NCBI RefSeq assembly: GCF_024223415.1
Contig: NZ_CP100500.1
DNA: 64,000 nt
Source: Escherichia coli
Lineage (GTDB): Bacteria > Pseudomonadota > Gammaproteobacteria > Enterobacterales > Enterobacteriaceae
Reading direction: 5' to 3' (one strand)
Part shown: positions 27,196 to 44,883 of the stretch, in pieces
Numbering within the stretch: the stretch's first letter is position 1
Layout: each line of letters starts with the position of its first letter
Program-made: the position numbers and the translations under genes
Notes under the pieces: generated by a model
The model's input: the letters and a program-made list of their open reading frames with translations, nothing else
What the model was told of the DNA's origin: nothing
Databases searched by the model: none

Positions 27196-30100
27196 CAGGC
27201 GTTCTCCTTATCTTGTGCAAAGAACGCCCAGGCCACTTTGTAGTCGTCTTCGCGATCTGGCTTGATAAACGGAGCCTGCCAGGTGACGGTGCGGCGCTCG
27301 CCTTCGTCGCTGCGGGTATAGTCATCAAAGGTGACGCTGACGGTACCGGTTTTCAGATGTTTGACATCATCCCAGCCGATGGCTTGATCGGTGCAGTCAC
27401 CGCCGGTCCACTCCGGGCTGTCGACGTTAAAGACAAAGCTGTTTTTCAGATCAGCTTTACGGGCGGTACGCGGCAGACCGACGCCCACCAGCCCTTTGCT
27501 TGGGGTAAAGATGATGCGGCCGTTTTGGTCGTACCAGGTGTCCGCTTCGTACTGGCGCATCACCGGGAACTGTACACGGTAAATGGTAAGCAGCTCTTCG
27601 AGAGTTAACCCCAGCGCCTGTGCCACCAGCACGTCGATTTCCACCAGCGCCTGACGACGACTGTAGTCGGAGCGTAAGGCGCAGTTACGCTGCCACTCTG
27701 GGGTCAGATTGGTGAAGAAATCTTGTGGCAGCAGCGGGAGATCGCGGCTCCAACGCTGGGTGTTGAAGTCTGGGGTGTAGCAGGATTGCCAGAGATCGGC
27801 GTAATCTTTCGTTAACACATTCAAAGCTAATGCTCTTGAGTTTGCACTCATTAGCTCAACATAAGGGAAGCCACGCAATGTTGATTCATAAACATCCGCC
27901 CGTCCTGTTGTTTTCAAATAAAAATCAGCCACTATTGAATGGCAAAATGCAGAGAAACTTAGCAGGTTTATTGGCTCTCTAAATGTTGTTGAGAGTACAG
28001 GGTGTATATGAGCAACGTGCTTTGGAACTATGCTGGATATCATCGAGCGTTCTGATGATGCCCCAAACATTCTCCGATTAACAAAACGATAATAATCCGT
28101 CACCTTCCTCGGCTCGTCTTCATCCTGCTCTTTCCACGAAACCCGTGGGGTGCGCTTTGCATACTCCTGTGCATCACATGCCGGAATGTAGTTAGTTCGC
28201 GGCAGGTAATCGTCGGGCAGGGTTAATAAATCAAGGCAATCATAATGGCTATTTGCCTCACAGAGAGCTCTTGGTGTCTTATTGAAAGGATTACCCACGA
28301 AGAAATGGGGACCAGACAATACCCATTGAGAAGCATCTTTTGGATACATTGTTTTACGCTCGATAGTGCCATCAATTTGCTGATTTGTTTCATGCCACAT
28401 TTCCAGAGAAAAATACTGGCCTTGCAAATCGCCTAATCGCTTCGGCTGATTGGCAAATTTTTCCAATACCGCGACAAGTTGCTCTGCGTGCAAAGCGGGA
28501 AGACGAGCCTGTAATGCTGGCGTGTCGGGTTCATCATACAAACGAGCAAATAAAGCTAGCTGCTCTTTCGTGACACGAATAAGCCTGGATTTATGACCTT
28601 TAGTATTCCATCGGCTATAGTAAACATCTTTTATATAACCTTCTTCCTTAATGCCACCAACCAATCCATCACCTGAATGCTCAAAACTCTCATCAAGAGT
28701 TGAAGGAATAAAAAGATTATTAATATTAATAAACTCCACGTCGTTCGATTTGGTCATAGAGTAAACATGTGTCCCAAATTTCATTCGACCGTGATCATTT
28801 GTTCCAACAAATAGAGAAAACTCATTTTGATATTGGCAATGTAGACGTAACCTTGGATAGATCTCTTCTCTGAAGAGCCCTCCCTTAGGATCGTCATATA
28901 CCCCCTCTGGGTGAACAAATCCTGCCACGCCTTTCTCTGCCCCCAGACGCCAGGCCTGAGGCAGGAAGCATTTATACAAGTTGGTCTGCACCCCGCGCAG
29001 TACCGGGTAGTTTTGCTGCGCATTGAGGAAGTTTTGCATCCCTTCACAGCCTTCATACTCGCTGCGCCAGGCCGCTTCCAGCGCCGGGATCTGGTTAAAG
29101 GTATCAATACGCAACGTTGCCAGCTTCGATGCACTCAGCTTACGCAGCACAAATTCCGGCTCGTAATCACCCAGCACGCCCGCTTCCTGCCATTCCACTT
29201 TCAGCCACGGCGGGTTTCCGAGCATCAGGTCAAAACCGCCGCGCTCGGCAAACAGGTCGCAGAACTCCAGATCCCAGTGGAAGAAACGGTGCTGCTTTCT
29301 CAGGGCATCGACAATCGCCAGACGCGGCAAATGGCGGAACAGCACATCGGTTTTCAGACGACCAGCAACGGAAAACAGCGAAGACTCTTCTCGCAGCAGG
29401 CCTTCTTCGGCAAACAGATCGCCAGTAGTGCGCTCCGCAACTTCAGTGACTTTTTCCGTAATCACAATCCCGTCGAGCAGGGTTTCAATCTCAAACAACC
29501 AGGTACCGCGATCCGGTAACTCATCGGCTTTGTCGATCGGCCAGAACCACAGCGCGCACCAGTAGTCCATCACCCAACGCAGCTTCTGGTAGGCGCTGTT
29601 ATCTTCAAGACGACCGCTAAAGGTTTCATCTTTACTGCTCAGCGAAGAACGCGTCTGCTCGCTGTTTTCTGCCGGCCACACCGGGTAGCTGTCGGCGGTT
29701 TTCAGACGTTCTGCTTTAAGTTGCTGGCGATAGGTGTTCCACAGTGCTTCCACCTTTTCGCTGATACGCTGCACATCAGCAATCTCATGCCCGGCAAAGC
29801 TTTTAATAAACTCTTTGCGCCAGCTGTCCAGCGCTTTGAAGTCATCCGGATAACGCTGCTTAACAGTTTTATCGCTGTAGTTAGCCATACCGCCGTCGGG
29901 CAGCAGGAAGTGGAAAATCTGCGTCTCTTCACGCGGCGTGTTCATCGCCAGTTCGACCGGCTCGCTGTTAAGCCAGCTAGGATCTTTGGCTTTTTTGTAG
30001 GTCAGTTCGCTCTTGTTGAACACCTGACGGCGCGCGCCCACCAGCGAGTTACCGCAGTGCAGCTGGTAACCAAACCACGGTACAAAGGCATCGCCACTGA

Positions 30101-32126
30101 TGGCGTTCAGCCACAGCGACACTTCCGCCAGCTCCACCGCCACCGGGTTTAAGTCCACGCCGAAAACATTGTTATCGGCAATGTACATTTTCACCCGCTG
30201 TAACTCCTGGGTGTAACGATCCTGCGGAATACGGCGACCTTCCGCCTGCTGCTTGTGGAACAGATACGCTTCCGCCAGCTGGTTGATGGCTTCGTTAAGG
30301 AACGCCGCGCTGCCCATCGCCGGTTCGCACACAGTGAGGTTTAAGATGGCGTCGGCTTTGGCGTGCGGATCGCTAATGGGATCAATCTGCTCCTTAAACA
30401 GTTCTTTCAGGGCATATTTAACCAGTGAGCGGGTCAGCACTTCCGGGGTGTAATAAGAGGCAGATTTCTCACGGTCGCGCCCGGCCATACGGTAGATAAA
30501 GCTGCCTTTGCGGTGAATGCGCAGACTGCCGTCTTTCTCGTAGACCTTCTCGTCTTCGTGGTATTTGCCAATCTCATCCTTACTGACGAAGTAACCTGTC
30601 TCCAGCTCGTTAAACTCTTCCCCGGCTTTCTTCACCTCGTAGAGATCTTCGCTGGCGAAGAATCCACGATAGGAGAGCAGCGCCTCATACACCGCACCCA
30701 ACTGGTTGATACCCAACTGGCGATAAGAAATACGTCCGCGGCGGTTAAAGCGCCCTTTGGCCGGGCGGCTTAACGACATCGCCTGGATAATCTGTTGCAG
30801 GGTTTCGTTACGGAATACCACGCGGTTAAGAATGCGCGTGTTGTTGGCATCAAACAGATGACTTTCCAGACGCGGGACGCTGAACTGATGACTATGGATG
30901 GTGATCCGGTCGCCGCTCTCCAGGTCACTCTGCATTTTCACGCCGCCGTTGTAGCCTTCGCGCACCAGTTTAAACAGCATATTCAGGCTGTCGTGGAAGT
31001 AGCGCCCGTTGCGATCTTCTTCGCTGGTCAGCGGGATCATCTCCAGATCGCGCAACGTTTCCAGACTGTAACCTTGCAGATAGGTTTTGGCTGTCATTGG
31101 CGCATAACCCAGCTCCGGGCGCGCTTCAATGTAGAACAGGAACAGCAGGCGGTACATGTAACGCAGACATTCGCGGCTCAGTTCATCCGGGTCCACCGCA
31201 CGGTTACCGGTATAGTTTGCCAGGCCACGGTCGATCAGATAATGCATCGCTTCGTTGCCCAGCAACTCAATGCTTTCGCGCAGGGCATATTTCAGATCTT
31301 CCGAAACACCAAACGCATGTTTGTGCGAATTGTCATCCAGCGAGTCAAGATAAGGTGCCCCACTGCCCGGCAGCAGAGAATCTTTATGTAACAACACCGC
31401 AGTCGCTTTCAGCGTATCCGTTTCACGACGGCTTAAAATCTCTTCAAAATCAAAACGTAGCAGACGGTTTTGCGCCCACTTAGTACGGTCCAGCAGCAAT
31501 AGCTGACGGTTACCGAGCAGCAGCACAAAACGCGGCGGTTCATTTTGGGTGAAGACCGCCGTAGAGAGCAGATCCTGCCAGCTGCGATATTCACCGTTGG
31601 CTTTTTTGCGCAGGCTGTCGCGCTTATGTTTGTCGGTATCCGCCGGGAATTGCGCGGTCAGTAAGGAGAGCGCCAGCGGATCCAGCGTTCCTTCTTCCTG
31701 ATCGTGTGCTTCAACAATCCACAGCCACGGGCTACCGTCAGTGCTGTTGTAACGCGCCAGTACCGGCAGCGGTGTATCGTCATCCAGCATTTGGATCTGT
31801 GGCGTAATTTCGTAGCCCAGCGCCTTTAACAATGGCTGCCAGCGATTACGTTGATCGGCCAGACGCTGCGGGATCTGACGCTGTTTTTCGTGCTCGGCAA
31901 GTTTGCGGAAAAACTCAGTCGCCAGACTGTTAAACTGGTTCCACGGAGCGCGGTATCCCGGCTCCACGTCTTTGCCCTGTTCACGAGCGGCACGCTCCGC
32001 TTCACGCGCTGCATTTTCCTTGGCTATCCAGGGTTCCAGCACATCGCGGATATCACTGGTGAAAACCTCACCCAAATAGTGGTTAGAGTAAAATTCGTTT
32101 TCGTTATTAATACCGACCAGCGCCAT
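27195..32126 (-). CDS. 1643-aa N6-adenine DNA methyltransferase (gamma-class; DrmMI/PglX-like)
   Basis: SAM-binding motif I …CEPAMGSAAFL… and catalytic motif IV …LGNPPWLKVEW… (NPPW). Its stop overlaps the start of the 2113-aa gene. Confidence 0.8.
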   Translation of the reverse strand: MALVGINNENEFYSNHYLGEVFTSDIRDVLEPWIAKENAAREAERAAREQGKDVEPGYRAPWNQFNSLATEFFRKLAEHEKQRQIPQRLADQRNRWQPLLKALGYEITPQIQMLDDDTPLPVLARYNSTDGSPWLWIVEAHDQEEGTLDPLALSLLTAQFPADTDKHKRDSLRKKANGEYRSWQDLLSTAVFTQNEPPRFVLLLGNRQLLLLDRTKWAQNRLLRFDFEEILSRRETDTLKATAVLLHKDSLLPGSGAPYLDSLDDNSHKHAFGVSEDLKYALRESIELLGNEAMHYLIDRGLANYTGNRAVDPDELSRECLRYMYRLLFLFYIEARPELGYAPMTAKTYLQGYSLETLRDLEMIPLTSEEDRNGRYFHDSLNMLFKLVREGYNGGVKMQSDLESGDRITIHSHQFSVPRLESHLFDANNTRILNRVVFRNETLQQIIQAMSLSRPAKGRFNRRGRISYRQLGINQLGAVYEALLSYRGFFASEDLYEVKKAGEEFNELETGYFVSKDEIGKYHEDEKVYEKDGSLRIHRKGSFIYRMAGRDREKSASYYTPEVLTRSLVKYALKELFKEQIDPISDPHAKADAILNLTVCEPAMGSAAFLNEAINQLAEAYLFHKQQAEGRRIPQDRYTQELQRVKMYIADNNVFGVDLNPVAVELAEVSLWLNAISGDAFVPWFGYQLHCGNSLVGARRQVFNKSELTYKKAKDPSWLNSEPVELAMNTPREETQIFHFLLPDGGMANYSDKTVKQRYPDDFKALDSWRKEFIKSFAGHEIADVQRISEKVEALWNTYRQQLKAERLKTADSYPVWPAENSEQTRSSLSSKDETFSGRLEDNSAYQKLRWVMDYWCALWFWPIDKADELPDRGTWLFEIETLLDGIVITEKVTEVAERTTGDLFAEEGLLREESSLFSVAGRLKTDVLFRHLPRLAIVDALRKQHRFFHWDLEFCDLFAERGGFDLMLGNPPWLKVEWQEAGVLGDYEPEFVLRKLSASKLATLRIDTFNQIPALEAAWRSEYEGCEGMQNFLNAQQNYPVLRGVQTNLYKCFLPQAWRLGAEKGVAGFVHPEGVYDDPKGGLFREEIYPRLRLHCQYQNEFSLFVGTNDHGRMKFGTHVYSMTKSNDVEFININNLFIPSTLDESFEHSGDGLVGGIKEEGYIKDVYYSRWNTKGHKSRLIRVTKEQLALFARLYDEPDTPALQARLPALHAEQLVAVLEKFANQPKRLGDLQGQYFSLEMWHETNQQIDGTIERKTMYPKDASQWVLSGPHFFVGNPFNKTPRALCEANSHYDCLDLLTLPDDYLPRTNYIPACDAQEYAKRTPRVSWKEQDEDEPRKVTDYYRFVNRRMFGASSERSMISSIVPKHVAHIHPVLSTTFREPINLLSFSAFCHSIVADFYLKTTGRADVYESTLRGFPYVELMSANSRALALNVLTKDYADLWQSCYTPDFNTQRWSRDLPLLPQDFFTNLTPEWQRNCALRSDYSRRQALVEIDVLVAQALGLTLEELLTIYRVQFPVMRQYEADTWYDQNGRIIFTPSKGLVGVGLPRTARKADLKNSFVFNVDSPEWTGGDCTDQAIGWDDVKHLKTGTVSVTFDDYTRSDEGERRTVTWQAPFIKPDREDDYKVAWAFFAQDKENA

Positions 32127-32128
32127 GA

Positions 32129-34987
32129 TTAACCCTCCGCTCCGGTGATAACAGCAATTACCTGAATGTAGGGTTCTTTTTCAGTCGTCATGGTGTCCTC
32201 AATCCATTCGATATAGCTGTCAAAATTGTGTTCGATTTCGCGTTGTCTCTGCTCTTTACGGCTCTGCTTGACTGACAATTGCTGTTTGTTATCGGCAAAA
32301 TCCAGCTCAAGTTGGCTCAACTGCCGCCCACGCAAAACGTCCAGCTTTTGCAGATGCTCATTCAGTTGCTGGTTAATGTGCGTTTCAAACGCATTCCGAT
32401 CATGGATGAATACCTCCCGGGCATGAGCAATAGCCGCTTCAAGTAAATCCTGCTGGCGTTGGTGATTACGATCTTTACCGCCGCTGTTAGTCAGCTTGTT
32501 ACTCAACTGCGGATGACGTTGTAAAAACTCAGCGAATGGCTGACTGCCGATTAGCGATTCACGGTTAAAGCTCACCACTATCCACGGGTTCACCATCGGA
32601 TGTGATTTACGGTTCGGGAATAACCCGGAAAGAATGAAGTGATCTTCATCGGGTTCAAGCAGGTATGGCAGACGGATAACTGGTGCCTGATGACGACCAA
32701 AAGCCGAAGAGATTTTATCGTCCAGCCACTGCACTACCGGGTTGATTTGCCAGAGATACTGCACATCGGGCCAGGCATGTTGCTCACCGCGAGCGCGCGC
32801 AATCGCGTCGGTGATGACGGTTTTATCCTGACTTAAATAGAGCTGCCAGTTCTCCGGGGCAATTTCAGGCGGTAGCTGGTTGAAGCGGCGGCGTAACTCC
32901 TCCGGAGCCACCAGCGACAAGGTATTATCAGGCAAGGTTTCATACTGGATAGTTTGACCACTGGCTTTCAGGTAACCCAATGCTCTTTCGCAGTACGCCT
33001 GTTCGCTGGCAAACAAGCTGGTGTCTGCTTCGGTGACCATTGAGGCATCGCTGGAAACCGCACTGCATATTTCGCCAAACAGATCGTGTTCGGCGCTTTC
33101 CGAGACGTTGCTGTTCAGCAGTTGATCAAACAGGCTGGCACCATCATCCTGCATCATGAACTCTGCAACCTGCTCTTCTTCCTCTTCCTGGGTAAATTTG
33201 CCGGTAAACTCCGAACTGTCCCCAATGTTCTTCTGCGCCTGTTCGTCTTTGTTGATCAACACTTCCAGTACGCGCATATCGCCATTGATCTGTGGTTCGC
33301 TGGCCTCAGTAAGCAGATAGCGGATTTGAGGCTGATGTTTTTGCCCATAGCGGTCAATACGCCCGTTACGTTGCTGGAATACCATCAACGACCACGGAAT
33401 ATCAAAGTGAATCATTTTGTGGCTAAGGTGATGCAGGTTGATCCCTTCAGATGCCACATCCGAACAAACCAGAAGACGCAACGGCGACTGCGTTTTACCA
33501 AAGGCTTCTACGGTTTCCATCAATACCGTATCGCCCTGATCGCCGCGCAGCGTGGCGATCTGGTCATCTTTCAATTTCAGATCCGCTCGCAGTTGCTGTT
33601 CGAGGAACTCCAGCGTTTTAATACTTTCGGTGAAGATCACCAGGCGATCTTCCGTGTTATTGGCTTTCCAGGCGAGGTCTTTTCGGATGGTGTCGAGCAG
33701 CAACTGGTATTTGCTAAACTGGCTGGCATCAATATTATTCAGCGCCAACAGCAATGACTCCAGTTCGTTGATCTGGCTCTGGCTATTATGATCTTTACGG
33801 CTCTCAAGACGCTTCAGACGATTCGCCACGACGCTGGCACACGCCATCGGGCTGGAAAATAGCGCTTTTTCGAGGGTTATCTTGAACAGACGACCTTTGT
33901 TAGACTGGGCCTGTTCATCGTCATCATCACGGAACTGGCTCTCAACCAGACGACGGTATGCTTCTTCTTCGGCACCGGATGCCAGGCGAGTCAATTTGAC
34001 AATATTGCGCTCGGGAAACTCGCCGGACATCTGATCTTTCACGTCTTTTTTGAAGCGACGGACAACCAGATTTTTATCGGCAAAGTCGGCGTATTCATAC
34101 TCTTTCGGGTTGGCGATCGCCGTCGGGTCAAGCATGTTCATCAGGCTGGCAAAACTTTCAGCCTTACCATCATGCGGCGTTGCTGAAAGCATAATCAGCG
34201 TATCGCTACGCCCGGCGAGCAGTTTTGCCAGTTTACTGCGTAACGAACTGGTTCCACGTTCTGCGACGTTATGGGCCTCATCAATGACAATAATATCCCA
34301 CCAGGCATTTTCCAGATGGTGACGATATTCAATGTCTTGTTTCAGCGTATCGATGGAGATAATGGTCTTGTCAAAATAGTGGAACGGGTTGTGGTTGGTT
34401 GGGATGCGGTTACGCACCTTTTGTAAACCAGCAGAATCCAGGCGGGTCAATGGGATCGCAAAACGGCTCCAGAACTCCTTCTGGAATTGTGTCAGCATCG
34501 ATTTGACCGCCAGAACCAGAATACGTTTTCCGCGCCCACGACGGATCAGCTCCGAAACCAGAATACCCGCTTCCAGTGTTTTACCCAGACCGACAGCGTC
34601 GGCAATGAGTATCCGCTGACGCGGTTGTGCCAGCGCCATCCGCGTAGGATCGAGCTGAAACGGCATGGAATCCATCGCCGCCAGATGACCAAAATGGACT
34701 TTACTGTCTGTCGGTACGCGTTGGCGTAACTGACTTTCGATATACAACTGCGCCGCTTGATAATTGGCGGATTCATCTTCCACCAAATGCGTTTTTGCGG
34801 GATCCAGGATCTCTACTTTTTGTTCCAGTTTGGTCAGAAATAACCCTTCTTTACCGCGCACAAGCTCTGAAATACCATCGCAGGTCAGCAAATACCCACC
34901 ATCACCACTGTCATCCGCCCGGCGAATACGCCATTCGGCATCACGAATAACCACCCGCATACCAGGTGCATAATTTTGCTTATTCAT
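32129..34987 (-). CDS. 952-aa SNF2-family helicase (DrmD-like), first gene of operon
   Basis: SNF2 Walker A LIADAVGLGKTLEAG, DEAH box IIVIDEAHNV, motif III LMLSATPHDG, C-terminal helicase motif …FQQRNGRIDRYGQ. It ends 2 nt before the methyltransferase start. Confidence 0.85.
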   Translation of the reverse strand: MNKQNYAPGMRVVIRDAEWRIRRADDSGDGGYLLTCDGISELVRGKEGLFLTKLEQKVEILDPAKTHLVEDESANYQAAQLYIESQLRQRVPTDSKVHFGHLAAMDSMPFQLDPTRMALAQPRQRILIADAVGLGKTLEAGILVSELIRRGRGKRILVLAVKSMLTQFQKEFWSRFAIPLTRLDSAGLQKVRNRIPTNHNPFHYFDKTIISIDTLKQDIEYRHHLENAWWDIIVIDEAHNVAERGTSSLRSKLAKLLAGRSDTLIMLSATPHDGKAESFASLMNMLDPTAIANPKEYEYADFADKNLVVRRFKKDVKDQMSGEFPERNIVKLTRLASGAEEEAYRRLVESQFRDDDDEQAQSNKGRLFKITLEKALFSSPMACASVVANRLKRLESRKDHNSQSQINELESLLLALNNIDASQFSKYQLLLDTIRKDLAWKANNTEDRLVIFTESIKTLEFLEQQLRADLKLKDDQIATLRGDQGDTVLMETVEAFGKTQSPLRLLVCSDVASEGINLHHLSHKMIHFDIPWSLMVFQQRNGRIDRYGQKHQPQIRYLLTEASEPQINGDMRVLEVLINKDEQAQKNIGDSSEFTGKFTQEEEEEQVAEFMMQDDGASLFDQLLNSNVSESAEHDLFGEICSAVSSDASMVTEADTSLFASEQAYCERALGYLKASGQTIQYETLPDNTLSLVAPEELRRRFNQLPPEIAPENWQLYLSQDKTVITDAIARARGEQHAWPDVQYLWQINPVVQWLDDKISSAFGRHQAPVIRLPYLLEPDEDHFILSGLFPNRKSHPMVNPWIVVSFNRESLIGSQPFAEFLQRHPQLSNKLTNSGGKDRNHQRQQDLLEAAIAHAREVFIHDRNAFETHINQQLNEHLQKLDVLRGRQLSQLELDFADNKQQLSVKQSRKEQRQREIEHNFDSYIEWIEDTMTTEKEPYIQVIAVITGAEG

Positions 34988-35058
34988 CGGTTTTTCTGTC
35001 TATTTGGGGCAGTGGCGGTAACGTCATCCTGAAAAATGTGGCGCGGCACACTGCGATA

Positions 35059-35093
35059 AAAAAGAGGGCCTTAAAGATATCATGAAGGCCCCC
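35059..35093 (-). terminator. candidate rho-independent terminator between the Druantia-like operon and the SNF2-led operon
   Basis: On the minus strand: gggcctt-(12 nt loop)-aaggccc followed by tctttttt. Confidence 0.4.
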
Positions 35094-35210
35094 GGCAAAG
35101 TGACAAAATGGGAGGGAATGCGCATAAATTGCGCATGATTTTCAAACAAAAATTATTAAAAAGTGAGCTGGGTCAACTCCCCTGGAAGATATCCCCAGGG
35201 AAGCAATTAT

Positions 35211-38200
35211 TTATCCAGCGATAATATAACTCCTAAGGTCATTACCCGGGGCAACAGCTCGCGCTCGCGTGTTTGCCAGCCGTTCAACTTGCTGCGGTAC
35301 TCGCAGGGCAAAATCAAAGAAGGTATCTTCAATACAGCGCCAGTAGCTAAGCCCCATGTCGAGCAGGACATAATGCTGACTGCCATCGCTGAAGGTGACT
35401 GTCAGTTCTCGTCCATGCTCCGTACTCTGGTTATCCCCCGTTAACCAGCTAATTGCTCCCGGCCACGCAGGCCCCAGATATCCTTCTTCAAGTAAAGTGG
35501 TCACAACCTGCTGACGATCTTCCTCATTAAGCCACGCGTTATAGAGAGCGTCGTGTTGGCGAGAGTTGTAATCCAATTTTTTGACGCAAACAGTGAGGCT
35601 GGCGCGTTCCGCCATTCCCTGTTCAACCAGCTCGGTTAAGATTTCACCTAACAAACGCGCCGTGAATGGGCTATTAAGATAACGATCGCTGTACTCAACA
35701 TGCGTTATCTCTTTGTGGCGGGTAAATGCCTGCTTCCAGCCAGCGTGCTGTTGCGTGACTAACGACCAGAAACGCGAACCAAAACCTTCCAGCGGCCCGT
35801 CCAGTTGTTCACAGAGATTGATGCGCACCGCCCCGGTGGGTAAGGCGGGCAGTAAATCTTCTGCACTTAAGGTCTGACCCGAGAAGTTTTTTCCGGACGT
35901 TCCTTTAAGTGTCACTACTGGTGAAGACGCACTTTGTCCCCATAATTCACCAGGGGCAACGGTAGCGCTGTCGTCTGCGGCCCACTGTTGGCTTTGCCCT
36001 TCGCGAGTCACCTGCGCAAGCCAGCGCCCCTTTCCTTGCATGAGTTGCGCAGTGGCAATGGATTTCACTTGTAAGCGTCCTCCCGGCATCGCCGCCAACG
36101 CGGAAAGCTGATGTCTGGAGCTATCAGTTAAGTTTTCCAGCGGCGTGGCCACCAGCAACTCAACATTCCCACCGGAGGAGGCAAACTGGAGCAACTCTTT
36201 AAATAATGGCCATTGGGCAAAGTCCCACTGTTCCTGCGGCCCCGCAAGAACCAGCGAGCAGGAGTCATAAATCTCGCTGTTCAGGCATTGCGCAATACGT
36301 AAACTCAGAGGGTTAGTTTCAACCCGGCTACCATCGCCGAAGTACTGATATTCTGGCGCGAGGTTAAGTCGCTGCAACCGTACATTGGTAAGCAGGGTTA
36401 ATGCATGGTGACGATCTAATCTGTTGACATAATGCTGACTGTCGTAGCTGAGCAAGCAGTGGTGACAAAATTTATCGCAACTGCAATCGAGCAATTTTCT
36501 GGCGTAATTAAAGACATCAGCCCAATGGTCGATCAATTGCACTGCATAACCTGCACCACCCGCATTATTGTCGTATATGAAGATGGAATATCCGGTATAG
36601 CCATTGATATCGCGCGCTTGCTGCGTCGTCACGCCCAGCTCAGTATTTTCGATACCCAATTTATGCGCTAACCCTTCACGCAAAGCGACCGCAAGGGAAC
36701 GCGCGGCAACCTCATCACGGATCAACAGGCCATTATCATCATTGAGTTGCAGCTCAACCATATCTGTACGACTGCTATATCCCAACCACAGATCTTTATG
36801 CACATGACCGTGGCACAATTTATTGCTCCCCTGACGATCGTTACTGCCCCCTCGCAACAGGTAATGCGTATTTTCCCGCTCTGGGTTCTTTAGATTTTCA
36901 GGGGTACGCTGGGGTTGAGTTTGAGATTCTGCCCGACCACATGAGAGGCAAATTGCGTAGCCGTGCCCAAATTCCCCTTCACTGAAGTGGAACAATTCCC
37001 CACTATGGCTAAAACGGTAACGTCCTAGCCCAGCATCGGGTAAAGAAACCCACACCGAAGACGGTACAAGAACACGTGGATCTTTCCAAGGAAGTTGTGC
37101 AGGCATGGATACATCATTATGTGCCTGATAACGAATATCTGTCGCAAAACCAACAGGCTGTAAATAACGCTTCACATCAAGTTGCTGTATATCCGCTTTG
37201 CAGTGACTACATTCGACAGGACGGGTAGTACTGGTTGCCCCCGCACCACATTTACGGCAATGCCAGAACCACGGAATGTGATGATCGCCTGACAGCTCCT
37301 GCCCGCTGGCAAGTACCTTGCCAAGCATAATGCCCGAGGAACGATATACTTTTCCGCCCAATACCACATCTGCACCAGGCGCATACTCGCGTAATGCTGT
37401 AGGTAGATCACGGCTGGGCAATTTTTCAATACGACGAGAAAAGCTTTCTCCCCCTTCATTAGGGTCAGCCTGAGTAGCTTTTATTGCACGACGTTTTTCC
37501 AGCTCATCTGCCGTCAGATAATTGAAATTGACGACGCCAACCGGGAAACCATGCCCCGGCAGGAACGCTTCACTAATGAGTTTAGAAAACAGATATGCAC
37601 CGCGATAATCACGAAGCTGATAAGCGATGGCTTTACCTGCTGGCGTTTCTTCCCACGCGCTGTTATCCGCCTTCAACGCTTCGATATTTTCCAACAGTAT
37701 CGCAAGTTGGCTTCTCCAGCGGATATCAACCTGCTGCATCATTGCTTGTGTGCGGGTCAAGAGCTGGGTTGCCGTCAATGACTTCAGGACGGTTCCCTGA
37801 GTAAGGCGTTTAAGTTTATCCGCCAGCTCATCGGCCTGGTGATTTAACCAATGAAGAAAACGAAGACACTGGCTCTCATCACCTTCAAAGAACCATTTGC
37901 AACTCAGTTTTGTCGCATCAGGTACTTCAGCTCGTAAAAACAGACCTAAAACCAGGGCATTAACATGTCGTTGAACAATACTACTGCTCCCAAAACGAAC
38001 CCGTGGCGCACTGGCAGTAGTGTTGAACGCCCAGAGGGGGTCTTTGAATACCTCCATTCCATGCGCCGTGTTTTTACATAACGTAATGGCAGCAGATGCA
38101 CTCTCTCCACGACGCCCCGCGCGACCTGCACGCTGCAAATAATTTGCCGGCGCTGGAGGAACGTTGTTCATTGCCACCAAACTCATACCACCAATATCCA

Positions 38201-38693
38201 CCCCCATCTCCATGGTCGTGGAACAGTTCAGCACATTAACTTTGCCTGACTTAAATTGTTTTTCATTAAACTGGTTCTGCTCAGGCGTTCTCTGCGCAGA
38301 GTGTTCCTCCAGACGATACCAGCTATCTTTCAGGGCCAGTCGGTCGCTGCGAGTAGACCATAATCCTTCCTCGCGGGCATGTTGAATCAGCGCATTACTT
38401 TCCAGCCACTCCAGACGTTCTTCTCGGGCGATTTCTCCACCACCAGACAAACGCCAGTGACGTACAGGAAGCTCAGGCATTTCAATCAACACTGCTTTTT
38501 CAGGTGCAATTTCTTTGCTACCCGGCAAATACGGAGAGTATCCCAGCAACGTGACGTCTAACGCACGTCGAGTATAGGGGCAACGCCACACTTGCTTTGG
38601 ACTGTAAAATTCAGCCTGTTGTTTAATATCCAGCTGATAACCCGACTCAAACTGACGTAAGCAGGGTCGAATTGCATCCCAGACCTCAATCAT
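35211..38693 (-). CDS. C-terminal segment (1160 aa) of a DruE-like giant helicase; frame open upstream to the A7 tract at 38830-38836
   Basis: Helicase motif VI …ANYLQRAGRAGRRGE… near its N-terminus (matching the C-terminal lobe of the upstream ORF), then Cys clusters (CRKCGAG…CSHCKAD, CLSCGRAES, CSCDKFCHHC). Architecture parallels the 2113-aa protein. Confidence 0.7.
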   Translation of the reverse strand: MIEVWDAIRPCLRQFESGYQLDIKQQAEFYSPKQVWRCPYTRRALDVTLLGYSPYLPGSKEIAPEKAVLIEMPELPVRHWRLSGGGEIAREERLEWLESNALIQHAREEGLWSTRSDRLALKDSWYRLEEHSAQRTPEQNQFNEKQFKSGKVNVLNCSTTMEMGVDIGGMSLVAMNNVPPAPANYLQRAGRAGRRGESASAAITLCKNTAHGMEVFKDPLWAFNTTASAPRVRFGSSSIVQRHVNALVLGLFLRAEVPDATKLSCKWFFEGDESQCLRFLHWLNHQADELADKLKRLTQGTVLKSLTATQLLTRTQAMMQQVDIRWRSQLAILLENIEALKADNSAWEETPAGKAIAYQLRDYRGAYLFSKLISEAFLPGHGFPVGVVNFNYLTADELEKRRAIKATQADPNEGGESFSRRIEKLPSRDLPTALREYAPGADVVLGGKVYRSSGIMLGKVLASGQELSGDHHIPWFWHCRKCGAGATSTTRPVECSHCKADIQQLDVKRYLQPVGFATDIRYQAHNDVSMPAQLPWKDPRVLVPSSVWVSLPDAGLGRYRFSHSGELFHFSEGEFGHGYAICLSCGRAESQTQPQRTPENLKNPERENTHYLLRGGSNDRQGSNKLCHGHVHKDLWLGYSSRTDMVELQLNDDNGLLIRDEVAARSLAVALREGLAHKLGIENTELGVTTQQARDINGYTGYSIFIYDNNAGGAGYAVQLIDHWADVFNYARKLLDCSCDKFCHHCLLSYDSQHYVNRLDRHHALTLLTNVRLQRLNLAPEYQYFGDGSRVETNPLSLRIAQCLNSEIYDSCSLVLAGPQEQWDFAQWPLFKELLQFASSGGNVELLVATPLENLTDSSRHQLSALAAMPGGRLQVKSIATAQLMQGKGRWLAQVTREGQSQQWAADDSATVAPGELWGQSASSPVVTLKGTSGKNFSGQTLSAEDLLPALPTGAVRINLCEQLDGPLEGFGSRFWSLVTQQHAGWKQAFTRHKEITHVEYSDRYLNSPFTARLLGEILTELVEQGMAERASLTVCVKKLDYNSRQHDALYNAWLNEEDRQQVVTTLLEEGYLGPAWPGAISWLTGDNQSTEHGRELTVTFSDGSQHYVLLDMGLSYWRCIEDTFFDFALRVPQQVERLANTRARAVAPGNDLRSYIIAG

Positions 38694-38755
38694 TAAGTGG
38701 TTAACTAACGATTTCCAGTGAGCCTGCTCAGGTTGTATTGCCGGAAAGACTGCGA

Positions 38756-41533
38756 TTAATAGCTTAATGACCCGGTTATAATGGCGATCGCGTATTTGTG
38801 GCCAAAGTTGATCACGTTTCTGCCCTTTGTTTTTTTATCTGGCCCCTGGAGCATTTTTACCGGGAAACGTGCCCCCATCCAGCGAGGGTATTGCTCGTTT
38901 TCGTAAAAAACGGCACTGTTTTCACGGATAAAGAAATCAAGAGTAATCTTCAATAAATTACGCCATTCCGCTAATTGCTTATCGGGATCGGGTAATAATG
39001 TCTTCCAGTCCTGCGGGCAGGTTGTAACTTTATCAATAAATGGATAGTGAATGGCTACCAGACCCAGACTTTCGAGGGTCCAGGCATTTTTAGGGCGGCG
39101 ACCAAACTCGCTGTATAAACAAAAATCTGCAAACTGTTGTTTAGTAAGATCAAGCCCAGACAATTCTTTAAAACTGCCTCTCATTCTATCGGCAAGGTCC
39201 ACACTGCCAACCAGCTGTTCAGACAGCGTTTGCCATGACATGGTTTTCTTCTGCTGATTGCCAGAGTTAACCTGAAGTATTTGCATCGCTTCAGCATGCT
39301 CCGGGCTTAAGGAACTCACCATCGGCTCAATAATTTTAAGTGACTGAATGTCCGCCGGGCTAAGCTCCTCATTCGCAGCCATCGCTTTTTTCAGCGCGTC
39401 GATGGAATTTTTTAAAGGGAGGACAGAAAACTGGCTAATAACTTTCTCTAACAGTGCACAGTGTGCCGGGCTGAGTTTTGCTGAAGGCTCTGTAATATTT
39501 GCCAGCTCCTGGTAACAAAGAGCTCGCAACGTCGCTTTATCGGCATCCTGCTGTAAGCGGGCTGAAATGCGAGCGGTACCCTGACGCGAATCCGTAAAGG
39601 TGAGCAAGCGTCGACCATTAAACGGTCCTAACTGCTCTTCTCTTGTTTGCGGTAATGGAGAAAACTCCAGCAGAGTAGGAATAATTTCATTTAAAAAAAA
39701 GGGCGCGCCGAGCCGAAGCGGACGGAATAAAGGATTATTTTTCCGTTGAGTGTCACCACAGCAAACACAAGCAAAGGAGTTATTGCGCCCCTCACCTCGA
39801 GATTCCGGTCTTAACAGGTTTATTTCATAGTGCTTTTGCGCTTCACTATCAATTTTCCCCGCCGTCGTTTCTTCCAGTGAAATGATATATTTTTCACCAT
39901 CGCTCGCAATCAGACGATCAAATTGAGAGTTATTGTCTAATTCGTCGTTGTCTTCATCTTCAGAATAAACATCTACATCAAGAGCAAACTCATCCACTTC
40001 GGCAGCGGCTGGTTGCGCTACCAACCAGTTCGTTCCATCACCGCGCATCTCCTCTTTGGCAGACAAATAAGCTGAACCACACCCGGAGCAACGTAAAACT
40101 TCAAATACCGGCGCTCCACAGTCACAATATTGGCGCTGCTCAAACCATACCTGACCAAATGGCCAGTCACTCTGATTTAATTCATGTGCTTTATGTGAGC
40201 ATTGTTTGTTTGAACATGCCCATAGACCCGCCAGTGTTCTGATAAACCCATGCATACGTAATGGCGTAAAAGCCAGTTCACCTTCTCGCGATCTTGCCAT
40301 TAGATCGAGGAGTTGCAGTAGCTCACGGTGATTAATATCTGGCCAGGTTCTTCTGGCAACATTGAGCAACTCACTCAAACGTACTGCCTGCCGTCCGGGA
40401 TGAGTTAACGCCTGACGCAATTGCTGGGCCACACGGTAATGACAAAGCTGTTGGTAAAGATCCTGAGGGCTCAGGGATTTAAGAGAAGTTAAAGATGTGG
40501 GGTATTCATGACGAATCAGCGACTCCGATACCCGCGGTATTTGTCGATAACCGCGAACCACTTTGACATCACGTTCTGTAACGCCCGCGAGATCAGCGAC
40601 AAATTTAGCAAGCTCCTTATTACCTTCAGGAGAGTCTTCACCAATAGTGGCAGAGGTCGCGATAATCTGCACAGGTTTATCTGTGCCGGGTCCAACATTG
40701 AAAGCCTGCATAACACGACGTAAAAGCAGCGCTAACTCAGCAGCCTGAGAACCAATATAACTATGGGCTTCATCCAGGACGATATACTTTAACATCCCCT
40801 GAGACTTTTCGATGATTGGGGCATCTTTACGACGAATCAGCATATATTCCAGCATGGTGGTATTCGTCACCATGATGGAAGGTGGTGCTTCATAAATGGC
40901 TTCCCGACTCAAAGCTTGTTCAGGTACTTTCAACTGATCTTCCTGAACTTCGTATTTGGTATGCCGGGTTTCGCCATTATATAGCGCGAAGCGTATTTTC
41001 CCCTTAAATCCGCGCGTCCATTCGCGAAGCCGCTCCTGTTGGCTGTTAATTAATGCATTTAACGGATACAAGAAAATAGCTTGTGTCCCTGTTAGTGACT
41101 GGCGGGTCGATTTTTGCTGACGAATAAGATCTTCCAGAACCGGTACCATAAAGCATTCTGTTTTCCCGGATCCCGTACCGCTGCTCACTAACAAGGATTT
41201 TTTGTCTTCCAGAATCGTTCGCCACGCAGTAAGTTGATGACGAAATGGCACTGGCGCTTTGCTCAATGCATCAACCAGCGGGCTGGAGATCAGCTTGTCC
41301 CGCAAATCCTCCATTGTTTCATCCGCAGGCATCCAGCCGAATGTACTTTCGAATACCGGGTCTGCAAGCAGTGACCCCTCCTGACCGGGAGGCTGAAAAT
41401 ATTGTGATTCCAGATAATGAGTCAACGACTTGCTCCGCAATGCCAACTGACTTACCACCGACCTCACCGCACGCTGATGAAGCTGATTTAGAAGTGGCGC
41501 ATAATGCAGTTGCTGAACGTCCATCAATGACAT
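38756..41533 (-). CDS. N-terminal segment (925 aa) of a DruE-like giant helicase; ends 2 codons... stop shortly after an A7 tract
   Basis: Motif I VSSGTGSGKTECFMVPVL, motif II VLDEAHSYIG, internal Cys clusters as in the 2113-aa paralog. It is in a different frame from the downstream 1160-aa ORF by exactly one nucleotide. Confidence 0.7.
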   Translation of the reverse strand: MSLMDVQQLHYAPLLNQLHQRAVRSVVSQLALRSKSLTHYLESQYFQPPGQEGSLLADPVFESTFGWMPADETMEDLRDKLISSPLVDALSKAPVPFRHQLTAWRTILEDKKSLLVSSGTGSGKTECFMVPVLEDLIRQQKSTRQSLTGTQAIFLYPLNALINSQQERLREWTRGFKGKIRFALYNGETRHTKYEVQEDQLKVPEQALSREAIYEAPPSIMVTNTTMLEYMLIRRKDAPIIEKSQGMLKYIVLDEAHSYIGSQAAELALLLRRVMQAFNVGPGTDKPVQIIATSATIGEDSPEGNKELAKFVADLAGVTERDVKVVRGYRQIPRVSESLIRHEYPTSLTSLKSLSPQDLYQQLCHYRVAQQLRQALTHPGRQAVRLSELLNVARRTWPDINHRELLQLLDLMARSREGELAFTPLRMHGFIRTLAGLWACSNKQCSHKAHELNQSDWPFGQVWFEQRQYCDCGAPVFEVLRCSGCGSAYLSAKEEMRGDGTNWLVAQPAAAEVDEFALDVDVYSEDEDNDELDNNSQFDRLIASDGEKYIISLEETTAGKIDSEAQKHYEINLLRPESRGEGRNNSFACVCCGDTQRKNNPLFRPLRLGAPFFLNEIIPTLLEFSPLPQTREEQLGPFNGRRLLTFTDSRQGTARISARLQQDADKATLRALCYQELANITEPSAKLSPAHCALLEKVISQFSVLPLKNSIDALKKAMAANEELSPADIQSLKIIEPMVSSLSPEHAEAMQILQVNSGNQQKKTMSWQTLSEQLVGSVDLADRMRGSFKELSGLDLTKQQFADFCLYSEFGRRPKNAWTLESLGLVAIHYPFIDKVTTCPQDWKTLLPDPDKQLAEWRNLLKITLDFFIRENSAVFYENEQYPRWMGARFPVKMLQGPDKKTKGRNVINFGHKYAIAIITGSLSY

Positions 41534-44500: not shown

Positions 44501-44883
44501 TAACCCGAAGCTTGTCCCAGGTTTCTTATCTTTCTTTTCCAGTAGCGAATGCCATCATTAACCAGCTTCTGTCGATGAACATACGGAACTTTCCAGTTAA
44601 TAGAATCTAAAATTGTGTCCCATTTAGGGTGTCCGACCGTATGAGTCCGGCGGATAAACTCTGCGGCATATATGCTAAATAGAACATCGCTATAGGAAAT
44701 GAATATCGTTCTTGGATAACTACGGGGGGCATATGTACGCAGTAGTTCTGCCAAACTTTCGTACTCTGTATCAGTACAACGGTAAGCATATAACGCCCGT
44801 CCATCAGCTCCGGATAATGAACGGCGACTAAAAAACATGTTAAGCCATTGCAAAAGTGGGTTAACTGGAGTTTTCACAAGCAA
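41524..44883 (-). CDS. 1119-aa protein of unknown function (DruH-like partner of the giant helicase)
   Basis: Large ORF with no motif recognisable by eye. Its stop overlaps the start of the 925-aa helicase ORF by ~10 nt, implying co-translation. Position and size fit the partner gene of Druantia type III. Confidence 0.5.
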   Translation of the reverse strand: MLVKTPVNPLLQWLNMFFSRRSLSGADGRALYAYRCTDTEYESLAELLRTYAPRSYPRTIFISYSDVLFSIYAAEFIRRTHTVGHPKWDTILDSINWKVPYVHRQKLVNDGIRYWKRKIRNLGQASGYLHTLACEGGLPIRMIENESGYLITYFRRIYQALRGQSSQYPAAKIAQELGDTIPVTMQNELVYEIAGEFCETLCRLLSEHPPQSSDPVSALRKLSPDWHLKLPLVLPEANAAEIVRRLLSQSSEIRSASSLQVERIWVDVDDSWYCDARFRFPATMRTEQLTSLFECHIQPEQTRLIISGKWKNGGARLAMLSRYEQQDWRVELLPIAMQKLSGADAMAEISLSLHEGPILLGHTIPKGGYELTEELPWVFEAMNESESQLKLVGMGSVSSRLNALFISLPKNSHLDISGEGEFDIPRLLKNSERSLTKISGVFSVVLHDGAVCTIRTQQLYDSAIEYYIKSTEVELVKSDYPVHRAWPKIGWKKDLQYGIVPEKELFWRSIRSGNNAWYSVASEMPKGQIEVRRIVNDEVLFSGKVVVLPADFDINIIPESAQQGIIMLSGITDTRIDKYLNNEKVTLKSDYSQNECAIYYNSSLMLENTVDLRVSWKDGSNLKLLLPKPVSGGRFVTNDGSVHFDGVASIAHLHGIDAELLTISCAGRGYLNIELLDENPVAEKFRYLHADLPLLSGRNDKLQQISLYENYNLLNAMLACAWNSNSTLCVDFYSDRFGKDKATLNIKRYDGSFIEHDQGLLVDIKNSVVFPANRIDELVVDAISLKNPGLHISLLKKDEFAYDLSALNVQDSPWLIVGKLDGTARIAPVIKWMLPVLQTNDLLLNALCEADPEQRKKNFNELIFEIDNNPLQNYCCLLTEYIKKYKMNNGLSLLDLDLFRGISSNYRVVVQLLISSCLSGDSDTIYDIQEELPFSWGWIPVSIWKDVFQKCWTYLEKQINDKTLALHILQPFIAFMNHRAHIDRRLAPIANMLLTYSESLPTGCDVLPTVSREQFNEAKQMLLRNPDSFGRISIFPKELWSSAITPELKSVFNKLWIEDKYHSRLEKRFNLMLVAALLTQKDNNLIHQLSALFEFHYQQAPQQLGVIYQYYFEQAGVCH

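What the first reader, a model, noticed from the sequence alone, without database searches (positions are those of the whole stretch)
34988..35210. Only ~70 bp between a candidate terminator and the SNF2 gene start; promoter of the four-gene operon unclear
The Druantia-like operon ends at 35211 and a plausible minus-strand terminator sits at 35059-35093, leaving very little room for a promoter before the SNF2 ATG (34987), which also has a weak RBS. The downstream operon may depend on read-through or on a promoter overlapping the terminator.
Basis: inference. Interest (0 to 1): 0.3.

Follow-up and report, generated by a model that had tools for sequence, protein, structure and literature searches.

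The report
ARMADA II promoter under a terminator hairpin

Summary
The window is E. coli O-island 172. On the minus strand lie druH-druE (Druantia III), a 223-bp spacer (35210-34988) and armABCD (ARMADA II). There is a 9-bp hairpin at 35093-35064 (-15 kcal/mol) followed by T6. Seventy nt separate it from the armA ATG, with no usable promoter between. armA has no Shine-Dalgarno pairing.

The interpretation needs revising. The spacer is more conserved than armA synonymous sites (about 0.72 against 0.53 identity) and always sits in front of armA, whatever lies upstream.

Three features are kept down to 80% ArmA identity, including Pantoea and Aeromonas where the upstream gene is divergent:
- an extended -10 element (TGnTATCTT, 35082-35074, in the hairpin loop);
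- the run CCTCTTTTTTATCGCAGTG, at the predicted start site near 35067;
- a leader stem-loop (35054-35009).

The hairpin itself exists only in the E. coli lineage. A second hairpin right after the druE stop (35204-35176) keeps its pairing with three different stem sequences and is the better druHE 3'-end signal.

Copies that lost armA decay in the 3' half; a copy with no upstream operon decays in the 5' half (P = 3e-6). No transcription start site data could be reached. This is a known kind of feature of modest interest.

The parts
35211..35213 (-). druE stop codon (TAA); end of the Druantia III operon
35176..35204 (-). Hairpin 1: a 12-bp stem with loop AUAUC, dG -18 to -21 kcal/mol; 3'-end or terminator hairpin of the upstream operon
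   Evidence: Folds. The upper stem has three different sequences in three lineages (CCCUGGGG/UUCCAGGG, CCCCCAC/GUGGGGG, CCCCCUGCC/GGCAGGGGG) with pairing kept: 4 pairs changed on both sides. Present wherever a co-directional gene lies upstream; absent in Pantoea, where the upstream gene is divergent.
35144..35179 (-). Small hairpin GAGUUG-ACC-CAGCUC (35179-35165) plus a T-rich tail (T5 at 35162-35158, then AATAATTTTTGTTT). Together with hairpin 1 this is terminator-like site T1.
   Evidence: Flagged. The tandem hairpins before the T run give dG -18.1. The T tract is not kept in the Serratia/Yersinia/Pectobacterium lineage.
35150..35176 (-). P1, an upstream promoter-like site: TTGACC (35176-71), 15 nt, TAATTT (35155-50); start would be near 35143
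   Evidence: PWM score 8.75. Kept in 27 of 29 type 1 and type 2 versions, as TTGACC-16-TATCGT in type 2. Not kept in Yersinia/Pectobacterium (GTGACG, no -10), Pantoea or L042.
35118..35136 (-). Hairpin AUGCGCA-AUUUA-UGCGCAU; found in type 1 and type 2 only
   Evidence: Its changes are C-to-U changes opposite G, which keep RNA pairing but break DNA symmetry. Absent in the Serratia/Yersinia lineage.
35101..35106 (-). TTGTCA, a -35-like hexamer. With CATGAT (35084-79) at 16 nt it makes the best sigma-70 match in the spacer; E. coli type only.
   Evidence: 9 of 12 matches; PWM 8.86. Weak (TTATCC or TTTATC) in type 2.
35074..35082 (-).
   Evidence: TGn(T/G)AnnnT is present in every armA-linked version in all lineages (TGTTATCTT, TGATACTCT, TGGTACTCT, TGAGACTCT). 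It is lost only in the armA-less 1218KP type.
35058..35093 (-).
   Evidence: dG -15.1 in the E. coli type and the L016/L027 mosaic. dG 0 to -1.9 in 15 type 2 versions. No hairpin in the Serratia, Yersinia, Pectobacterium, Pantoea or Aeromonas lineages or in L056.
35066..35068 (-). Predicted armABCD transcription start, 6-8 nt after the -10; inference only, not mapped
   Evidence: Position relative to 35074. Corresponds to about 5422584-86 in EDL933 CP008957.1.
35046..35067 (-). Block CCTCTTTTTTATCGCAGTGTGC. Invariant in E. coli types 1 and 2; the core CTTTTTTATCGCAGTG is kept to Aeromonas.
   Evidence: It was my metagenome search pattern, so within that set it is ascertained. The protein-found loci L050-L056 are independent of it.
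35009..35054 (-). Leader stem-loop: outer helix GCAGUGUG / C(G)CCACUGC
   Evidence: RNAalifold and pair counts show G-C to A-U and U-G to U-A changes. Each of six lineages folds alone into a stem-loop starting at GCAGUG with a different interior, dG -13.6 to -18.7.
34988..35008 (-). A-rich, unpaired stretch before the ATG with no Shine-Dalgarno sequence (…CAAAUAGACAGAAAAACCG)
   Evidence: Duplex dG +0.2. ACAGACAGAAAAACCGATG is invariant in types 1, 2 and 4. Unpaired in all folds.
32129..34987 (-). armA (SNF2/BrxHII-like helicase), first gene of armABCD
34983..35129 (-). Published candidate small gene XECs454 (Sakai): evidence of sense-strand RNA and ribosome footprints over the leader, but not a conserved protein
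   Evidence: The peptide from PMC5597208 matches this frame; RPKM 129 in LB. Between lineages, 1 synonymous against 21 non-synonymous codon differences.

Best explanation
The spacer has two functional halves.

The 5' half (35210 to about 35111) closes the upstream operon. A strong hairpin lies right after the druE stop. In E. coli it is followed by a small hairpin and a T-rich tract.

The 3' half (about 35110 to 34988) is ARMADA II's own promoter and leader. It holds an extended -10 promoter (TGATATCTT, 35082-35074). In E. coli this is helped by a -35-like TTGTCA paired with CATGAT. The start would lie near 35067. The mRNA would begin with CCUCUUUUUUAUC, fold into a stem-loop (35054-35009) and reach an armA start codon with no Shine-Dalgarno sequence through about 20 unpaired A-rich bases.

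Its loop is the -10, and its 3' arm and T run are the start site and first transcribed bases. Only in the E. coli O-island 172 lineage is the stretch 5' of the -10 complementary to the start-site region. There, polymerase arriving from upstream (druHE read-through, or the promoter-like site P1 at 35176-35150) would meet an intrinsic terminator. Transcripts begun at the core promoter lack the 5' arm and cannot be stopped by it. The hairpin therefore insulates armABCD from upstream transcription instead of leaving it without a promoter.

Shown: the conservation, the structures, the linkage to armA, and the pattern of decay. Inferred: that the -10 is used, where the start site lies, and that either hairpin terminates transcription.
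For: [quoted passage not shown]

Selection: armA four-fold-site identity between the E. coli type and type 2 is 0.53. The spacer is 0.72-0.75 identical after removing my search-pattern columns (P = 1e-6 to 1e-9).

Linkage: the spacer directly precedes armA in all intact loci, while the upstream gene varies. It is DruE at 100 to 39% aa identity, an unknown 1569+743-aa pair, an IS3 element, or a divergent gene.

Core promoter and leader: these are kept in six lineages down to 80% ArmA identity. The extended -10 is lost only where armA is lost.

Reciprocal decay: L042 has armA intact and no upstream operon; its 12 private changes all lie in 35181-35132. L003 has lost armA and kept the upstream operon; its 9 private changes all lie in 35110-35022. 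Fisher P = 3.4e-6.

Hairpin T2: dG -15.1 in the E. coli type and the L016/L027 mosaic, about 0 in the others.

Hairpin 1: compensatory changes in three lineages.

Published data: armABCD cloned alone with native promoters is active (PMC12458937). ARMADA II alone gives the strongest protection in EDL933. Sense-strand RNA over 35129-34983 in Sakai has RPKM 129 (PMC5597208).
Against: No transcription start or 3'-end mapping could be reached. The EDL933 Cappable-seq tables held here are cut before 5.42 Mb.

An extended -10 consensus match alone is expected about 0.2 times in 223 nt; only its conservation supports it. The predicted start is a pyrimidine, which is less usual.

The block around the -10 and T run could be conserved for another reason, such as a protein or RNA site.

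The RNA-seq signal reported from 35129 lies upstream of the predicted start. Some sense RNA therefore comes from further up (P1 or read-through), and P1 could be the main promoter in E. coli.

The hairpin's 12-nt loop is long for an efficient intrinsic terminator. Hairpin 1 is 14 nt from its T tract, and that tract is missing in one lineage.

The boundaries of the cloned ARMADA fragment are unknown because the primer table was not reached.

The lineages represent few independent events.
Confidence: 0.55

Rival explanations
1. Leader attenuator. The main promoter is the upstream site P1 (TTGACC 35176-71, start near 35143). The reader's hairpin lies inside a 155-nt 5' UTR and stops most transcripts early. 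This keeps armABCD low and releases an RNA of about 85 nt.
For: P1 is kept in 27 of 29 type 1 and type 2 versions and is the only site the scanner flags in Siccibacter. The hairpin at 35136-35118 changes only in ways that keep RNA pairing. Sakai sense RNA is reported from at least 35129.
Against: P1 and the 35136-35118 hairpin are absent in Yersinia, Pectobacterium, Pantoea, Aeromonas and L042, where armA and the downstream leader are intact. The attenuator hairpin itself is missing in type 2. No antiterminator or sensing element was found.
Confidence: 0.2
2. The 35093-35059 hairpin is the Druantia III terminator and armABCD has no promoter of its own. It is expressed by read-through from druHE.
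For: The hairpin plus T6 is a textbook intrinsic terminator by sequence. The genes are co-directional, and the two systems co-occur in 528 of 5426 E. coli genomes.
Against: armA with the same leader follows unrelated or divergent genes. armABCD alone is active when cloned. The hairpin is absent from sister lineages that also carry druE. druE is frameshifted in this very window.
Confidence: 0.08
3. Independent small regulatory RNA. P1 to T2 (about 35143-35058) is a trans-acting sRNA gene with a 5' hairpin, a C-rich single-stranded motif (UUCCCUCCC, 35118-35110) and a terminator.
For: A full-length but sub-threshold Rfam match to mmgR/suhB (RF00519; 25.1 bits against a gathering score of 41) aligns exactly these three features. 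RNA is detected over the region.
Against: It is below the family threshold; the E-value of 0.0022 applies only to a 236-nt search. The terminator and the motif are not kept in type 2. There are no ECs5261 or spacer hybrids in the RNase E CLASH tables, and no entry at these coordinates in the Hfq study's supplementary files.
Confidence: 0.07
4. Translated leader. The spacer encodes a small protein (XECs454, 49 aa), or uORFs whose termination at the armA ATG drives armA translation by coupling.
For: Ribosome footprints are reported (RPKM 66, 79% coverage). Two GTG-started uORFs (from 35051 and 35049) end at TAA 34982-80 and at the ATGA overlap in all 22 type 1 and type 2 versions. armA has no Shine-Dalgarno sequence.
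Against: In the XECs454 frame there is 1 synonymous against 21 non-synonymous codon differences, and the authors' own classifier calls it 'pseudo'. The uORF starts have no Shine-Dalgarno sequence and lie in the stem of the leader helix. The peptide sequences are not conserved.
Confidence: 0.07

Closest known systems
Intercistronic intrinsic terminator with an overlapping or adjacent internal promoter (for example the rpsU-dnaG-rpoD operon of E. coli; from my own knowledge)
   Same: A GC-rich hairpin plus T run between co-directional transcription units, with a promoter for the downstream genes close by.
   Different: Here the -10 lies in the hairpin loop and the predicted start in its 3' arm. 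The hairpin is present in one lineage only, while the promoter block is old. Nothing has been mapped.
5'-leader transcription attenuators (trp, pyrBI leaders; from my own knowledge)
   Same: A terminator-like hairpin upstream of the first gene of an operon, and small ORFs in the leader.
   Different: No alternative antiterminator pairing or conserved leader peptide was found. The hairpin is absent in sister lineages.
mmgR / suhB sRNA family (Rfam RF00519)
   Same: The order 5' hairpin, then UCCCUCCC-type motif, then terminator.
   Different: 25.1 bits against a gathering score of 41. That family is alphaproteobacterial. The features are not conserved in the type 2 spacer. It is a resemblance of layout only.
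WYL-domain (BrxR-type) regulator genes in front of defence operons
   Same: They occupy the position directly upstream of armA in a distant ARMADA II locus (L049, WYL domain E = 6e-11, stop overlapping the armA ATG).
   Different: The enterobacterial loci have no regulator gene there, only the 223-bp non-coding spacer.
XECs454, a candidate small gene of E. coli O157:H7 Sakai (Hücker et al. 2017, PMC5597208)
   Same: Same coordinates and strand as the armA leader (window 35129-34983).
   Different: My comparison shows no protein-level constraint. The signal is better read as the armA 5' UTR or upstream-derived RNA.

Membership tests
   9 bp with 6 G-C pairs, dG -15.1, T6 directly after the stem
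   The loop is 12 nt; the scanner with a loop limit of 8 did not call it
   dG 0 to -1.9 in 15 type 2 versions; no hairpin in four further lineages
   No Term-seq data could be reached
Intrinsic terminator or 3'-end hairpin: hairpin 1 region, 35204-35144 | Stem kept through compensatory changes, placed just after the stop codon | tested here: met
   Starts 7 nt after the stop codon. Three stem versions; 4 pairs changed on both sides
Intrinsic terminator or 3'-end hairpin: hairpin 1 region, 35204-35144 | T tract directly after the stem | tested here: inconclusive
   T5 follows a second, weak hairpin (dG -4.3) 14 nt after hairpin 1 in E. coli. The tract is missing in the Serratia/Yersinia lineage
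Sigma-70 promoter of the extended -10 class: 35082-35074 | TG at -15/-14, A at -11 and T at -7 of the hexamer | tested here: met
   TGATATCTT; the same pattern is found in all armA-linked versions of six lineages
Sigma-70 promoter of the extended -10 class: 35082-35074 | Needed in contexts that have no upstream co-directional transcription | tested here: met
   Kept in Pantoea and Aeromonas, where the upstream gene is divergent
Sigma-70 promoter of the extended -10 class: 35082-35074 | Mapped transcription start and promoter activity | not testable with these tools
   The TSS tables held here are cut short. Indirect support only: armABCD is active when cloned alone
mmgR/suhB sRNA (RF00519) | Covariance-model score at or above the gathering threshold | tested here: not met
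   25.1 bits against 41
ARMADA type II defence system (context) | Gene order: SNF2/BrxHII-like helicase, PglX-like methyltransferase, YprA-like helicase, UvrD/GajB-like helicase | tested here: met
   PADLOC and NCBIfam domain hits and gene order. Identical proteins in EDL933, named armABCD z5899-z5902
Druantia type III (context) | DruH plus DruE | tested here: met
   DruH3 E = 0; DruE3 matched in two pieces. DruE is split here by a 1-nt deletion
Protein-coding small gene (XECs454) | Purifying selection on the amino-acid sequence | tested here: not met
   1 synonymous against 21 non-synonymous differing codons

The most novel reading that the evidence does not exclude
The invariant run CCUCUUUUUUAUCGCAGUG, placed exactly at the predicted start site, may be a control device and not just a promoter-proximal sequence. 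Together with the conserved leader stem-loop and the armA start that lacks a Shine-Dalgarno sequence, it could set or switch ARMADA II expression. One route would be polymerase slippage at the T run that depends on nucleotide pools; another would be a host RNA-binding protein. In E. coli the added hairpin would make the switch also respond to transcription coming from Druantia III, which acts in synergy with ARMADA II.
Probability: 0.08. Interest if true: 0.7.

Novelty: new member of a known kind. Interest (0 to 1): 0.33.

Why it matters
ARMADA II was only described in 2025. In EHEC it is the dominant anti-phage system and acts in synergy with the neighbouring Druantia III. How its expression is set is unknown.

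This analysis makes three concrete points. ARMADA II most likely carries its own promoter and a conserved 5' leader. A definite start site near window 35067 is predicted. In E. coli the two systems appear to be transcriptionally insulated from each other. Deletion and cloning experiments should take this into account: removing druHE together with the spacer's 3' half would also silence ARMADA II.

The work also re-reads the published candidate gene XECs454 as a leader RNA.

Tried and rejected
- I first guessed that the spacer encodes the EHEC sRNA Esr41. That sRNA lies in O-island 43/48, so the guess was rejected.

- I looked for mapped start sites. The EDL933 Cappable-seq tables (PMC10469882) are stored only up to about 0.5-2 Mb. 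The Sakai dRNA-seq paper has no held supplements. The two supplementary files held for the Hfq crosslinking study have nothing at these coordinates. The RNase E CLASH tables have no ECs5261 entries. The EDL933 ncRNA study has no Z5898-Z5900 entries.

- L043 seemed to be a natural deletion of the spacer's 5' part. It is most likely a chimeric assembly, with a Firmicute-like gene joined abruptly to E. coli sequence, and I set it aside.

- XECs454 as a protein is rejected on substitution pattern.

- Membership in the mmgR family is rejected on score.

- A long-range pairing, 35149-43 with 35002-34996, was proposed by RNAalifold. It has only one-sided changes and would need a start upstream of 35149, so I did not rely on it.

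- By eye I found no convincing sigma-54, sigma-32, CRP, LexA or Fur sites. That is my reading only, not a tool result.

- A scan of viral contigs for the core block found nothing.

- P1 was my leading promoter candidate until the 80-88% lineages showed it is not kept.

Full report
**What the region is.** The window comes from E. coli O-island 172. On the minus strand PADLOC profiles identify:
- DruH (41524-44883);
- DruE, in two pieces (38756-41533 and 35211-38693);
- an SNF2/DrmD-like helicase (32129-34987);
- a type IIG-like methyltransferase (27195-32126);
- a DruE/YprA-like helicase (20854-27195).

A UvrD-like helicase (18743-20857) follows; it was identified by NCBIfam matches. The 801 nt around the finding occur in 528 of 5426 complete E. 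coli genomes, including O157:H7 and O145:H28. RefSeq annotation and two 2025 preprints name the systems Zorya II, Druantia III (druHE) and ARMADA II (armABCD, z5899-z5902). The finding therefore concerns the 223-bp druE-armA spacer, 35210-34988.

**Checking the observation.**
- TAA lies at 35213-35211.
- A hairpin has arms at 35093-85 and 35072-64 (9 bp, 12-nt loop, dG -15.1 kcal/mol), followed by T6 at 35063-58.
- Seventy nt separate the T run from the ATG at 34987. The only promoter-like match there would start inside the gene.
- armA lacks any Shine-Dalgarno pairing (dG +0.2, against -9.3 to -10.8 for armB, armC and armD).

A scan of the whole window found 23 terminator-like sites in 128 kb.

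**The spacer is a conserved unit tied to armA.** DNA pattern scans of one genome per species and of metagenomes gave 43 further loci with 29 distinct versions. Protein comparison of the flanks shows the spacer directly 5' of ArmA (93-100% aa) wherever the downstream side is intact. The upstream neighbour, by contrast, varies. It is DruE at 100, about 90, about 80, 59 or 39% identity, an unknown 1569+743-aa gene pair, or an IS3 element.

Between the E. coli type and 'type 2' (Siccibacter, Enterobacter, Citrobacter), armA four-fold degenerate sites are only 53% identical. The spacer is 72-75% identical even after removing my search-pattern columns (P = 1e-6 to 1e-9). The spacer is therefore under purifying selection.

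The hairpin has dG -15 in the E. coli type and in one mosaic (L016/L027). All 15 type 2 versions have dG 0 to -1.9 at the same place. Yet the loop sequence and the T run are unchanged there. What is conserved at this position is sequence, not the stem.

**More distant lineages decide what that sequence is.** ArmA homologues at 80-88% identity were located on their contigs.
- Serratia, Yersinia and Pectobacterium have druE, then a spacer of again exactly 223 nt, then armA.
- In Pantoea and Aeromonas the upstream gene is divergent, so armA must have its own promoter there.

Four features are kept in all of these lineages.
- An extended -10 pattern, TG-n-(T/G)AnnnT, corresponding to window 35082-35074 (TGATATCTT), inside the hairpin loop.
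- The run C(C)TCTTTTTTATCGCAGTG, which begins 8-10 nt later.
- A stem-loop whose outer helix starts at GCAGUG. Its interior differs by lineage. Each version folds alone at -13.6 to -18.7 kcal/mol, and a G-C to A-U exchange is seen.
- About 20-25 unpaired A-rich bases leading to an ATG with no Shine-Dalgarno sequence.

The extended -10 is present in every armA-linked version and is destroyed (G35081C, C35084T) only in the E. coli 1218KP type, which has lost armA. The predicted start, 6-8 nt after the -10, is 35068-35066.

**What is not kept.** Several features drop out in the more distant lineages.
- The upstream promoter-like site P1 (TTGACC 35176-71, 15 nt, TAATTT) is conserved in 27 of 29 type 1 and type 2 versions. 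It becomes GTGACG with no -10 in Yersinia and Pectobacterium, and it is absent in Pantoea and L042.
- The hairpin at 35136-35118 is not kept.
- The T tract after hairpin 1 is not kept.

Hairpin 1 itself (35204-35176, dG -18 to -21) keeps its pairing with three different upper-stem sequences. It is found wherever a co-directional gene lies upstream, and not in Pantoea.

**A reciprocal natural experiment.** I counted changes private to one version at columns otherwise invariant. armA-linked versions have 0-3 such changes.
- L042 has IS3 and an integrase upstream, with armA and armB intact. It has 12 private changes, all between 35181 and 35132. Its 3' part is 99% identical to its nearest relative, its 5' part only 65%.
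- The 1218KP type has kept the upstream operon, but armA has been replaced by transposase remnants. It has 9 private changes, all between 35110 and 35022.

The split is significant (Fisher P = 3.4e-6). The 5' half therefore matters to the upstream operon and the 3' half matters to armA.

**Published experiments that bear on it.**
- armABCD from an O157:H7 strain, cloned alone 'under its native promoters' on a single-copy BAC, protects BL21-AI (PMC12458937). The fragment boundaries could not be read.
- A Sakai RNA-seq and Ribo-seq study lists a candidate gene XECs454 whose peptide maps to window 35129-34983, on the armA strand. Transcript RPKM is 129 in LB, with ribosome footprints at 66 (PMC5597208). 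The frame shows 1 synonymous against 21 non-synonymous differences between lineages. It is leader RNA, not a conserved protein. Its 5' extent shows that some sense RNA also arises upstream of the predicted core start.

**Best reading.** druHE ends at hairpin 1 (plus the T-rich tract in E. coli). armABCD is transcribed from its own extended -10 promoter, with a structured leader that lacks a Shine-Dalgarno sequence. In the E. coli lineage the 20 nt upstream of the -10 have become complementary to the start-site region. This creates a terminator for polymerase coming from upstream. Promoter-initiated RNA escapes it because that RNA lacks the 5' arm. The same 20-nt patch also supplies the -35-like TTGTCA.

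I give this reading 0.55. The main rival, at 0.2, is P1 as the promoter with the hairpin acting as a leader attenuator. Pure read-through, an independent sRNA (a layout like mmgR but only 25.1 bits against 41) and a translated leader are each below 0.1.

**Limits.** No start or end of any RNA was mapped here. The lineages represent few independent events. The core block was partly my search pattern, although the protein-found loci are independent of it. Why the T run at the start site is invariant remains unexplained.

Noticed in passing
window 38830-38836 (minus strand), affecting 35211-41533: druE is split into 925-aa and 1160-aa ORFs by the loss of one A in an A8 run (A7 here; A8 and an intact 2104-aa gene in strain ESDR8). 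This could be a real frameshift, phase variation or a homopolymer sequencing error.
   Followed up: partly
L003:5007-11944; also L004, L006, L009, L015, L022, L024, L026, L046: An unknown gene pair (1569 aa and 743 aa, overlapping by 4 nt) takes the place of druHE directly upstream of the same spacer and armA in Enterobacter, Citrobacter and some E. coli. It has no match in PADLOC, Pfam or NCBIfam, and is a candidate undescribed defence system.
   Followed up: partly
window 27195-32126 against L001, L002, L047: ArmB (the methyltransferase) is only 89% identical between this window and EDL933, while ArmA is 100% identical. Across all loci ArmB ranges from 80 to 93%. This suggests that the specificity-determining part is diversifying.
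   Followed up: no
L049:41-1003 and L053:2582-3004: In a distant ARMADA II locus (ArmA 48% identical) a WYL-domain gene ends on the armA ATG (ATGA overlap). In Shewanella indica (84%) a 140-aa gene of unknown function does the same. Other lineages therefore place a gene, possibly a regulator, where enterobacteria have the non-coding spacer.
   Followed up: partly
L043:1-725: The metagenome contig QZMH01005423.1 joins a low-GC flavoprotein gene, with its own terminator, promoter and start codon, to the E. coli spacer at window position 35150. This is probably a chimeric assembly.
   Followed up: partly
window 34952-34968 (minus strand): A 6-bp hairpin, CACCUGG(U)AUGCGGGUG, in armA codons 7-12 was flagged in each of the four loci scanned (the E. 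coli type and three type 2 loci). The only variable base in the first 45 coding nt of types 1 and 2 lies in its loop.
   Followed up: no
window 35051-34980 and 35049-34984 (minus strand): Two GTG-started uORFs (23 and 21 codons) are open in all 22 type 1 and type 2 versions. They end at TAA, 5 nt past the armA ATG, and at TGA overlapping it (ATGA). Their peptide sequences are not conserved.
   Followed up: partly
window 35143-35149 with 34996-35002 (minus strand): UUGUUUG and UAGACAG are complementary and nearly invariant. RNAalifold pairs them. The pairing could form only in RNA that starts upstream of 35149.
   Followed up: no
window 35186-35193 and 35074-35081 (minus strand): The octamer GATATCTT occurs in the loops of both spacer hairpins in the E. 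coli type only. A repeat of this size within 223 nt is not unlikely by chance.
   Followed up: no
L003:12100-12900: In E. coli 1218KP and in three metagenome contigs that carry the same version, the spacer is cut about 15 nt before the armA ATG by transposase remnants and armABCD is gone. L015 is cut exactly at the ATG.
   Followed up: partly
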